Assembly (NCBI GenBank): GCA_964016885.1
Contig: OZ024740.1
Span: forward strand, 276,210,001-276,274,000
DNA from: Eledone cirrhosa
Lineage: Eukaryota
Length of the DNA stretch: 64,000 nt
Reading direction: 5' to 3'
The position numbers and the translations under genes are program-made. Below, in pieces: positions 22,612-22,889 of this stretch. Below the pieces are notes generated by a model. The model was not told the DNA's origin. It saw only the letters and a list, made by a program, of their open reading frames with translations, and did not search any database. Position 1 is the first letter of the stretch. Each line of letters begins with the position of its first letter.

Positions 22612-22647
22612 CATAGAAGTGGTTACACAACAGTTAGTTCACCATAC

Positions 22648-22685
22648 CGAGAACAATTGTTTCACCTTAGCGGATCCTCAGCTCG
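22648..22685 (-). ncRNA. Minimal type I hammerhead ribozyme motif (mirror copy)
   Basis: Minus strand CGAG-CTGAGGA-tCCgctaaGGt-GAAAC-AATT-GTT-CTCG with self-complementary stem III ACAATTGT. Confidence 0.68.
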
Positions 22686-22728
22686 TAATGGACATGGTTA
22701 TACCTGTTCCGTATAACCATGTCGATTA

Positions 22729-22766
22729 CGAGCTGAGGATCTTCTAAGGTGAAACAATAGTTCTCG
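22729..22766 (+). ncRNA. Minimal type I hammerhead ribozyme motif
   Basis: CGAG-CTGAGGA-tcttctaaggt-GAAAC-aata-GTT-CTCG; stem I CGAG/CTCG; core conserved; stem II weak. Confidence 0.6.
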
Positions 22767-22889
22767 GTATGGTGAACTAACTGTTGTGTAACCACTTCTA
22801 CCTAACTCATCCCATGGACTGAGTGCTCTACCACTAGGATTTCTATCACTATATATATATATATGCGTATGTGTTTATGTGTGTATATA

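What the first reader, a model, noticed from the sequence alone, without database searches (positions are those of the whole stretch)
22614..22850. Family C: 90-bp-arm palindrome carrying two complete minimal hammerheads on opposite strands
Seen: + strand 22729-22766 and - strand 22648-22685 each read CGAG-CUGAGGA-stem II-GAAAC-AAU(U/A)-GUU-CUCG. The minus copy has a self-complementary stem III (ACAAUUGU). Three of the four arm mismatches fall in stem/loop II and loop III and none in the core. Known: palindromic stem III is characteristic of PLE hammerheads that cleave as dimers. Inference: a self-cleaving motif, although a read-through transcript would instead form a long dsRNA hairpin (potential endo-siRNA source).
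Basis: partly seen in the sequence, partly recalled or inferred. Interest (0 to 1): 0.75.

Follow-up and report, generated by a model that had tools for sequence, protein, structure and literature searches.

The report
Back-to-back stub of Penelope retrotransposon
This palindrome is two short ends of a very common Penelope-type jumping gene inserted back to back in a TA repeat, so its two hammerhead ribozyme motifs are one ordinary part of that element copied twice and are predicted to be shut off by pairing of the arms; it is a known kind of insertion, not a new RNA device.

Summary
The palindrome and both hammerhead motifs are real. They are two 5'-truncated copies of the terminal repeat (pLTR) of one abundant Penelope-like retrotransposon family (8,365 exact hits of a 22-mer), joined head to head in a TA microsatellite, with a tail on one arm. 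Longer copies carry a ~700-codon RT/GIY-YIG frame with the motifs of the Hydra clade. The hammerhead's oddities (U·U above stem II, GUU site, palindromic stem III) are already tabulated for Hydra elements, one of them with the motif on both strands through an inverted copy. The mismatch pattern is not evidence of selection: all four changes are on the + arm, one destroys its stem III palindrome, and missing the core has P=0.53. Arms end at two fixed points (+38, +103 from the cut site) and 114 of 122 extend upstream of the cut, so uncleaved RNA was likely the template, likely primed from both DNA ends. 5' ends pile up at -20 to -75, perhaps the RNA start. Cleavage and transcription of this locus are untested. 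The scan has reported the same architecture for other DNA of this genome several times.

The parts
22614..22703 (-). Short (untailed) arm: inverted 5'-truncated pLTR copy, element positions -51 to +38 from the hammerhead cut site
   Evidence: +38 is one of the two fixed 3' ends of the family
22648..22685 (-). Type I minimal hammerhead motif, family-majority sequence, palindromic stem III, predicted cut after U at 22652
   Evidence: a 39-mer covering it has 1,230 exact genomic copies
22703..22800 (+). Tailed arm, palindromic part: pLTR copy, element positions -59 to +38; overlaps the left arm by 1 nt at 22703 (junction)
   Evidence: sequence; junctions differ between copies
22729..22766 (+). 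Second copy of the hammerhead motif with three private changes (stem II, loop II, loop III); stem III no longer self-complementary; predicted cut after U at 22762
22801..22850 (+). One-sided tail (family tail about 65 nt, to +103; here 15 nt shorter by an internal deletion)
   Evidence: alignment of 27 copies; 3' end classes; contig of run X1 covers 22810-22928 without a difference
22578..22613 (.). (TATC)n microsatellite flank, left
22850..22865 (.). (TA)n flank, right; likely the target
   Evidence: TATATA within 12 nt of the 3' end in 86 of 122 arms

Best explanation
This is an insertion of two 5'-truncated pLTR ends of an abundant Penelope-like retrotransposon family with Hydra-clade motifs, joined head to head in a TA repeat, likely made when both cut DNA ends primed reverse transcription at two internal sites of uncleaved element RNA, and its hammerheads are predicted to be inactive here because the arms pair. 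Shown: palindrome, family size, link to the RT/GIY-YIG frame, two fixed 3' ends, variable junctions, read-through past the tail in tandem copies. Inferred: (1) the endonuclease cuts both strands in (TA)n; (2) RT starts at +103 on one end and +38 on the other, the interval being the tail, as shown in vitro for an anole PLE (PMC11167929); (3) both cDNAs cross the intact hammerhead and most stop at -20 to -75, perhaps the RNA 5' end in the upstream pLTR; (4) the two cDNA ends are joined with little or no overlap. In the active parent the hammerhead likely works as a weak, dimer- or protein-dependent processing ribozyme; at this locus it is a decaying passenger.
For: Outer ends fixed, centres variable in 27 aligned copies. 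552, 1,230 and 8,365 exact hits of three family words, 0 for the reversed controls. L062 shows inverted arm, ATG, ~702-codon (broken) frame, stop 200 nt before the cut, hammerhead, tail. Motif tallies in loci L031-L110: RWR 6 of 6 matches, DKT 22 of 24, CSCRKPEAC 16 of 23 listed, CGLC 40 of 44 listed, CPH 42 of 47, RDD 23, which fit the Hydra definition. 92 homologues of 586-934 aa at 33-44% identity, one with Pfam GIY-YIG (1 of 7 scanned). Published Hydra hammerheads share the U·U core, GUU sites and palindromic stem III, and Penelope-13_HM is listed with the motif on both strands. Position-ordered sample: 58 short, 61 tailed, 3 other of 122 arms; 34 of 39 head-to-head pairs are short+tailed; the short arm reaches further 5' in 12 of 34, the tailed in 16, equal in 6; 114 of 122 5' ends lie upstream of the cut, 2 within -2..+3. 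11 of 13 tandem loci examined read through the tail towards the ATG. Monomer hammerhead fold has probability 4e-5 and 1e-7 against a hairpin of about -152 to -155 kcal/mol.
Against: No Pfam RT hit on 8 own fragments, no PDB sequence hit, Foldseek best E=0.006 (retroviral RTs): the RT call rests on motifs and on by-eye comparison with published Hydra proteins, no tree was built. 44 of 122 arms had no head-to-head partner in the DNA fetched and 5 of 39 pairs are not short+tailed. The two arms nearly always share subfamily alleles (86 of 89 pairs at +28, 62 of 67 at N7), which fold-back copying would also give. Later deletions at palindrome centres could create the asymmetry and the pile-up of 5' ends. 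The tail (about 65 nt) is longer than the 30-40 bp in print.
Confidence: 0.85

Rival explanations
1. Same element, but the inverted arm arises by fold-back (self-priming) of a single cDNA or of an antisense template, as proposed for rotifer Penelope elements (PMC3846280 passages), and later centre deletions blur the junction.
For: Arms share subfamily alleles; several junctions are perfect palindromes at internal self-complementary words such as GGATCC, AGCT and ACAATTGT.
Against: A fold-back of the tailed cDNA cannot give an untailed arm that reaches further 5', seen in 12 of 34 pairs and by 1.65 kb in L064; it does not by itself explain the fixed +38 end.
Confidence: 0.2
2. The short palindrome is itself a non-autonomous mobile unit (MITE- or retrozyme-like) that spreads as a whole and uses both hammerheads to process plus and minus RNAs.
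For: Many short palindromic copies of similar size exist; one identical junction occurs at two places about 0.93 Mb apart (L181, L182).
Against: Junctions differ in nearly every copy; arm lengths run continuously into the ORF; no tandem monomer arrays as in retrozymes were seen; each strand's hammerhead is buried in the hairpin.
Confidence: 0.04
3. This locus has been kept by the host as a functional self-cleaving RNA or hairpin-RNA (endo-siRNA) source.
For: A read-through transcript of either strand is predicted to form a 90-bp near-perfect hairpin, a plausible Dicer or ADAR substrate (established knowledge).
Against: Arm divergence and its placement match neutral decay; the + copy has lost its dimer palindrome; no gene context was found (no convincing coding frame among 8 listed).
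Confidence: 0.06

Closest known systems
Hydra clade of C-terminal EN+ Penelope-like elements (Craig et al. 2021, PMC8557442; seen: passages, section 11, supplement parts 1-2 and search hits), e.g. Hydra-1_Obim, Penelope-13_HM
   Same: Short (<3 kb) single frame, RW[K/R], DKT, CxCx5C linker, CxxC and CxH around E/N of the endonuclease, (TA)n targets, hammerhead near the 3' end with U·U above stem II, GUU sites, palindromic stem III; inverted 5'-truncated copy giving the motif on both strands.
   Different: A different family: its hammerhead differs from Hydra-1_Obim's, and two 13-mers of it have 0 hits in the supplement. Copy number is in the thousands; tail about 65 nt rather than 30-40; stem II only 2 bp.
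PLE minimal hammerheads (Cervera and de la Pena 2014, PMC4209133; seen: parts 1-2 of 4)
   Same: Type I, short stem I, palindromic stem III, predicted dimer dependence; the paper already reports dual motifs 100-700 bp apart on opposite strands in Schistosoma.
   Different: Their consensus has a long stem II and G10.1-C11.1; here U·U and a 2-bp stem II.
Poseidon PAc of Anolis (Frangieh et al. 2024, PMC11167929; seen: parts 1-2 of 4 and passages)
   Same: Two internal RT start sites whose interval is the tail; both target strands cut and extended; uncleaved RNA is the main template.
   Different: There the hammerhead and start sites overlap the ORF start; here they lie about 150-260 nt upstream of the ATG. 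The passages read do not treat inverted insertions or where 5' ends fall.
Non-LTR retrozymes (bioRxiv 10.64898/2026.07.22.740005; seen: part 1 of 5)
   Same: PLE-derived, non-coding, type I hammerhead.
   Different: Retrozymes are head-to-tail tandem units; this is a head-to-head stub with a locus-specific junction.

Membership tests
EN+ Penelope-like elements | Single frame with RT followed by GIY-YIG endonuclease | tested here: met
   ~702 codons ATG to stop in L062, broken in that copy; RDD motif 23 matches; homologue with Pfam GIY-YIG; fold search only weakly RT-like
EN+ Penelope-like elements | Partial tandems forming pLTRs, inverted 5'-truncated copy, one-sided tail | tested here: met
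EN+ Penelope-like elements | Hammerhead motif in the pLTR | tested here: met
EN+ Penelope-like elements | RT groups with PLE/telomerase RTs in a phylogeny | not tested
   No reference PLE proteins were available as tool inputs; by-eye colinearity with published Hydra proteins only
Hydra clade | RWK motif near the N-terminus | tested here: met
   RWR in 6 of 6 matches; Hydra-1_Crog also has RWR
Hydra clade | DKG changed to DKT | tested here: met
   22 of 24 matches
Hydra clade | CxCx5C linker; CxxC and CxH flanking E and N; no CCHH | tested here: met
   absence of CCHH judged by eye on the L062 translation
Hydra clade | Length under 3 kb and (TA)n targets | tested here: met
   ATG to tail 2.4 kb in L062 plus about 150 nt leader; TATATA next to 86 of 122 ends
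Hammerhead ribozyme (type I, minimal) | Core CUGANGA/GAAA, NUH site, three stems | tested here: met
   recurrent variation falls on N7 (48 of 210 arms), loop II and 5' flank, core 76 of 2,730 cells
Hammerhead ribozyme (type I, minimal) | Core more conserved than neighbouring sequence | tested here: inconclusive
   Core 2.8% versus 3' flank 2.9% (p 0.78), 5' flank 10.5%; sample biased by the search anchors and twin arms are not independent
Hammerhead ribozyme (type I, minimal) | Self-cleavage as monomer or dimer | not testable with these tools
   Only energies: stem III duplex -6.4 (left type), +0.9 (right type) kcal/mol
Non-LTR retrozyme | Head-to-tail tandem units each with a hammerhead | tested here: not met
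   Locus is a single head-to-head pair

The most novel reading that the evidence does not exclude
The palindromic stem III (ACAAUUGU) is kept mainly as an RNA dimer link that hands two uncleaved templates to a dimeric PLE protein, one for each cut DNA end, with both cDNAs running off an RNA start at about -75; this would explain why both arms copy the same stretch, why the hammerhead is retained although cleavage leaves no mark on insertions, and why head-to-head stubs dominate. The tenfold drop in 5' termination rate at -75 (0.020-0.028 to 0.002 per nt) supports only the run-off part.
Probability: 0.1. Interest if true: 0.65.

Novelty: new member of a known kind. Interest (0 to 1): 0.18.

Why it matters
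As a locus it is ordinary: one of thousands of stubs of a retrotransposon whose clade, hammerhead variant and inverted-repeat architecture are in print. The family data have modest value for an open question, how PLEs make inverted copies: two exact 3' ends, independent 5' ends on the two arms, no peak at the ribozyme cut and a sharp change in termination rate at -75 give positions for a direct in vitro and 5'-RACE test. The family also seeds many near-perfect hairpins in the genome, which could feed dsRNA pathways where they are transcribed (untested).

Tried and rejected
Rfam scan: no hammerhead among the 150 rows shown of 535; the top hit MIR6217 (78.7 bits, gathering 110) only reflects a long hairpin. 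Pfam on 8 own fragments and PDB sequence searches gave nothing relevant; Foldseek had no match at E<=0.001. Sequencing-run search: no RNA holder listed, which says nothing on expression; laid contigs were short and none spans the palindrome, and run X1 may be the assembly's own sample. First 5'-end map against one reference overstated the peak at -33 because of subfamily differences; redone against 68 long arm records, a few of them the same place fetched twice, and de-duplicated by position. The samples were rejected for end statistics because they are selected by similarity; the sample used is the first 100 of 8,365 hits in chromosome order plus partner arms. In the 39 pairs, L181/L182 look like one duplicated insertion and the L183 pair (1.9 kb apart) may not be a pair; both were left in. 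Idea that cleavage sets the 5' end of insertions: rejected (2 of 122 within -2..+3). Lunse et al. 2017 was not held; I saw it only as cited in PMC6765202 passages. Searches for print on twin priming in PLEs (3 papers, listings only, none about PLE mechanism by title or abstract start) and octopus+Penelope+hammerhead found no closer description; subscription papers and Repbase/Dfam were not searchable, so the family may be annotated there. Figures in the supplements of PMC8557442 and the supplements of PMC4209133 and PMC11167929 were not seen and may bear on the stem II variant and on inverted insertions.

Full report
Observation. The arms are at 22614-22703 and 22711-22800, 90 nt, 96% complementary, and fold far better than any of 200 shuffles. 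The window lies in a 3.0-Gb animal genome; earlier scan notes call it octopus, which I did not test.

It is a repeat family. A search of the genome gave 1,283 first-look candidates, 40 scored. Exact words of the element occur 552, 1,230 and 8,365 times, with 0 for reversed controls. In 27 aligned copies (30 loci less 3 repeats of the same place) the outer ends are fixed, one arm carries a tail, most flanks are (TA)n or another microsatellite, and the centre differs from copy to copy. At all four mismatch sites the window's left arm has the majority letter, so the + arm has decayed; it also has a 15-nt deletion in the tail.

The parent. Pairs of oppositely oriented hits up to 2.7 kb apart enclose coding sequence. 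Locus L062 reads: microsatellite, inverted 3' end, ATG, about 702 codons (broken by frameshifts and stops in this copy), stop, 200 nt, hammerhead cut site, 103 nt, (TA)n. Pattern-anchored tallies over loci L031-L110, which overlap in part, gave RWR 6 of 6, DKT 22 of 24, CSCRKPEAC 16 of 23 listed, CGLC 40 of 44 listed, CPH 42 of 47. These are the features by which Craig et al. define the Hydra clade of Penelope-like elements (PMC8557442 section 11). By eye the protein is colinear with Hydra-1_Obim in their supplement but is another family. 92 homologues of 586-934 aa were found, one of 7 scanned with Pfam GIY-YIG. Direct database support for the RT is weak: nothing in Pfam or PDB by sequence; the model (mean pLDDT 79.7) ranks retroviral RTs first at E 0.006. 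No tree was built.

The hammerhead is a known variant. The supplement table of Hydra hammerheads shows the same U·U above stem II, frequent GUU sites and palindromic stem III, and lists Penelope-13_HM with the motif on both strands; the metadata sheet notes an inverted 5'-truncated copy attached to it. Cervera and de la Pena already noted dual motifs on opposite strands 100-700 bp apart and low, dimer-only activity (PMC4209133). Across 210 arms holding the whole motif, recurrent variation sits on N7 (48 of 210), loop II and the 5' flank; the core (2.8%) is no more conserved than the 3' flank (2.9%), in a sample biased by its anchors. This fits selection in active parents and neutral decay after insertion. 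For this locus, the chance that four mismatches miss the core is 0.53, that three fall in non-core hammerhead columns 0.06, and 4 of 90 matches the family's 266 of 5,355. The + copy's stem III no longer self-pairs (+0.9 against -6.4 kcal/mol), monomer folds are improbable, and either strand's read-through RNA is predicted to be a hairpin of about -152 to -155 kcal/mol. One transcript can never hold both motifs in sense.

How it was likely made. I took the first 100 of 8,365 hits of a word downstream of the cut, in chromosome order, with partner arms: 122 distinct arms. 3' ends are bimodal: 58 near +38 (47 exactly), 61 near +103 (44 exactly; 1 reads through), 3 other. 78 arms form 39 head-to-head pairs, 34 of them short+tailed. 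In 11 of 13 tandem loci examined the element runs on past the tail towards the ATG, so both ends are internal to the RNA, as shown in vitro for the anole element, which also cuts and extends both target strands and uses uncleaved RNA (PMC11167929). 114 of 122 arms extend upstream of the cut and 2 begin within -2..+3, so cleavage does not set the 5' end. The short arm reaches further 5' in 12 of 34 pairs, the tailed arm in 16, equal in 6; in L064 the short arm is 1.65 kb longer. Fold-back of one cDNA, proposed for rotifer elements (PMC3846280 passages), predicts the first class should not exist unless later deletions made it. Against my reading, arms share subfamily alleles (86 of 89 and 62 of 67 pairs), which both models allow, and 44 arms had no partner in the DNA fetched.

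Where 5' ends fall. 71 of 97 arms that reach -20 end between -20 and -75; the termination rate is 0.028 and 0.020 per nt there and about 0.002 beyond. The simplest reading is run-off at an RNA start inside the upstream pLTR, as D. virilis Penelope has an internal promoter there (PMC2377424 passages). Stalling at the hammerhead, joining at internal palindromic words and later centre deletion are rivals I could not exclude. The window's junction (-51 and -59, 1-nt overlap) lies in this zone.

Earlier notes. Eight notes on other DNA of this genome describe the same architecture, and six of them name Hydra membership, twin priming or pile-up at the RNA start; none matched this sequence. My reading and counts came before that look-up; the notes are not independent support.

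Verdict. A real feature, a new family member of a known clade in a known insertion form. The hammerhead is likely a true PLE ribozyme motif in the parent and likely inert here. Interest 0.18. The boldest reading not excluded, that stem III pairs two templates for a two-ended insertion, I put at 0.1.

Noticed in passing
window about 18646-18820: A second hammerhead-bearing palindrome of an unrelated repeat family (core CUGAUGAU...UGAAAC), with a one-sided extension and (TA)n flanks; 705 first-look candidates in the genome; 20 copies aligned share nearly the same centre, but they were picked by similarity. Parent not sought.
   Followed up: partly
window 18850-18955: Another tailed stub of the finding's family, starting at the stem III palindrome, with no inverted arm.
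   Followed up: partly
L062, element positions -88 to -79: A GC-rich palindrome (TGCGCATGCGC) just upstream of the point where 5' termination drops tenfold; it resembles an NRF-1-type promoter motif (recalled, not tested).
   Followed up: no
L181 and L182 (G000 C1, about 35.17 and 36.10 Mb); L021 and L022: Identical junctions at two places, likely segmental or tandem duplication of an insertion.
   Followed up: no
fetched loci, several: At least three further hammerhead families with compensatory stem changes turned up in flanking DNA, and frames of other PLE families in L068, L074 and L075.
   Followed up: no
window 22376-22578 and 22870-23060: Flanking high-copy repeats: one ending in an AATAAA signal and (TATC)n into whose tail this element is inserted, one resembling a LINE 3' end (label recalled); both deep in contig cover.
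   Followed up: no
window 7816-14684 and 45033-48407: Very long AT-rich microsatellite-like arrays (6.9 and 3.4 kb) with strong GC skew.
   Followed up: no
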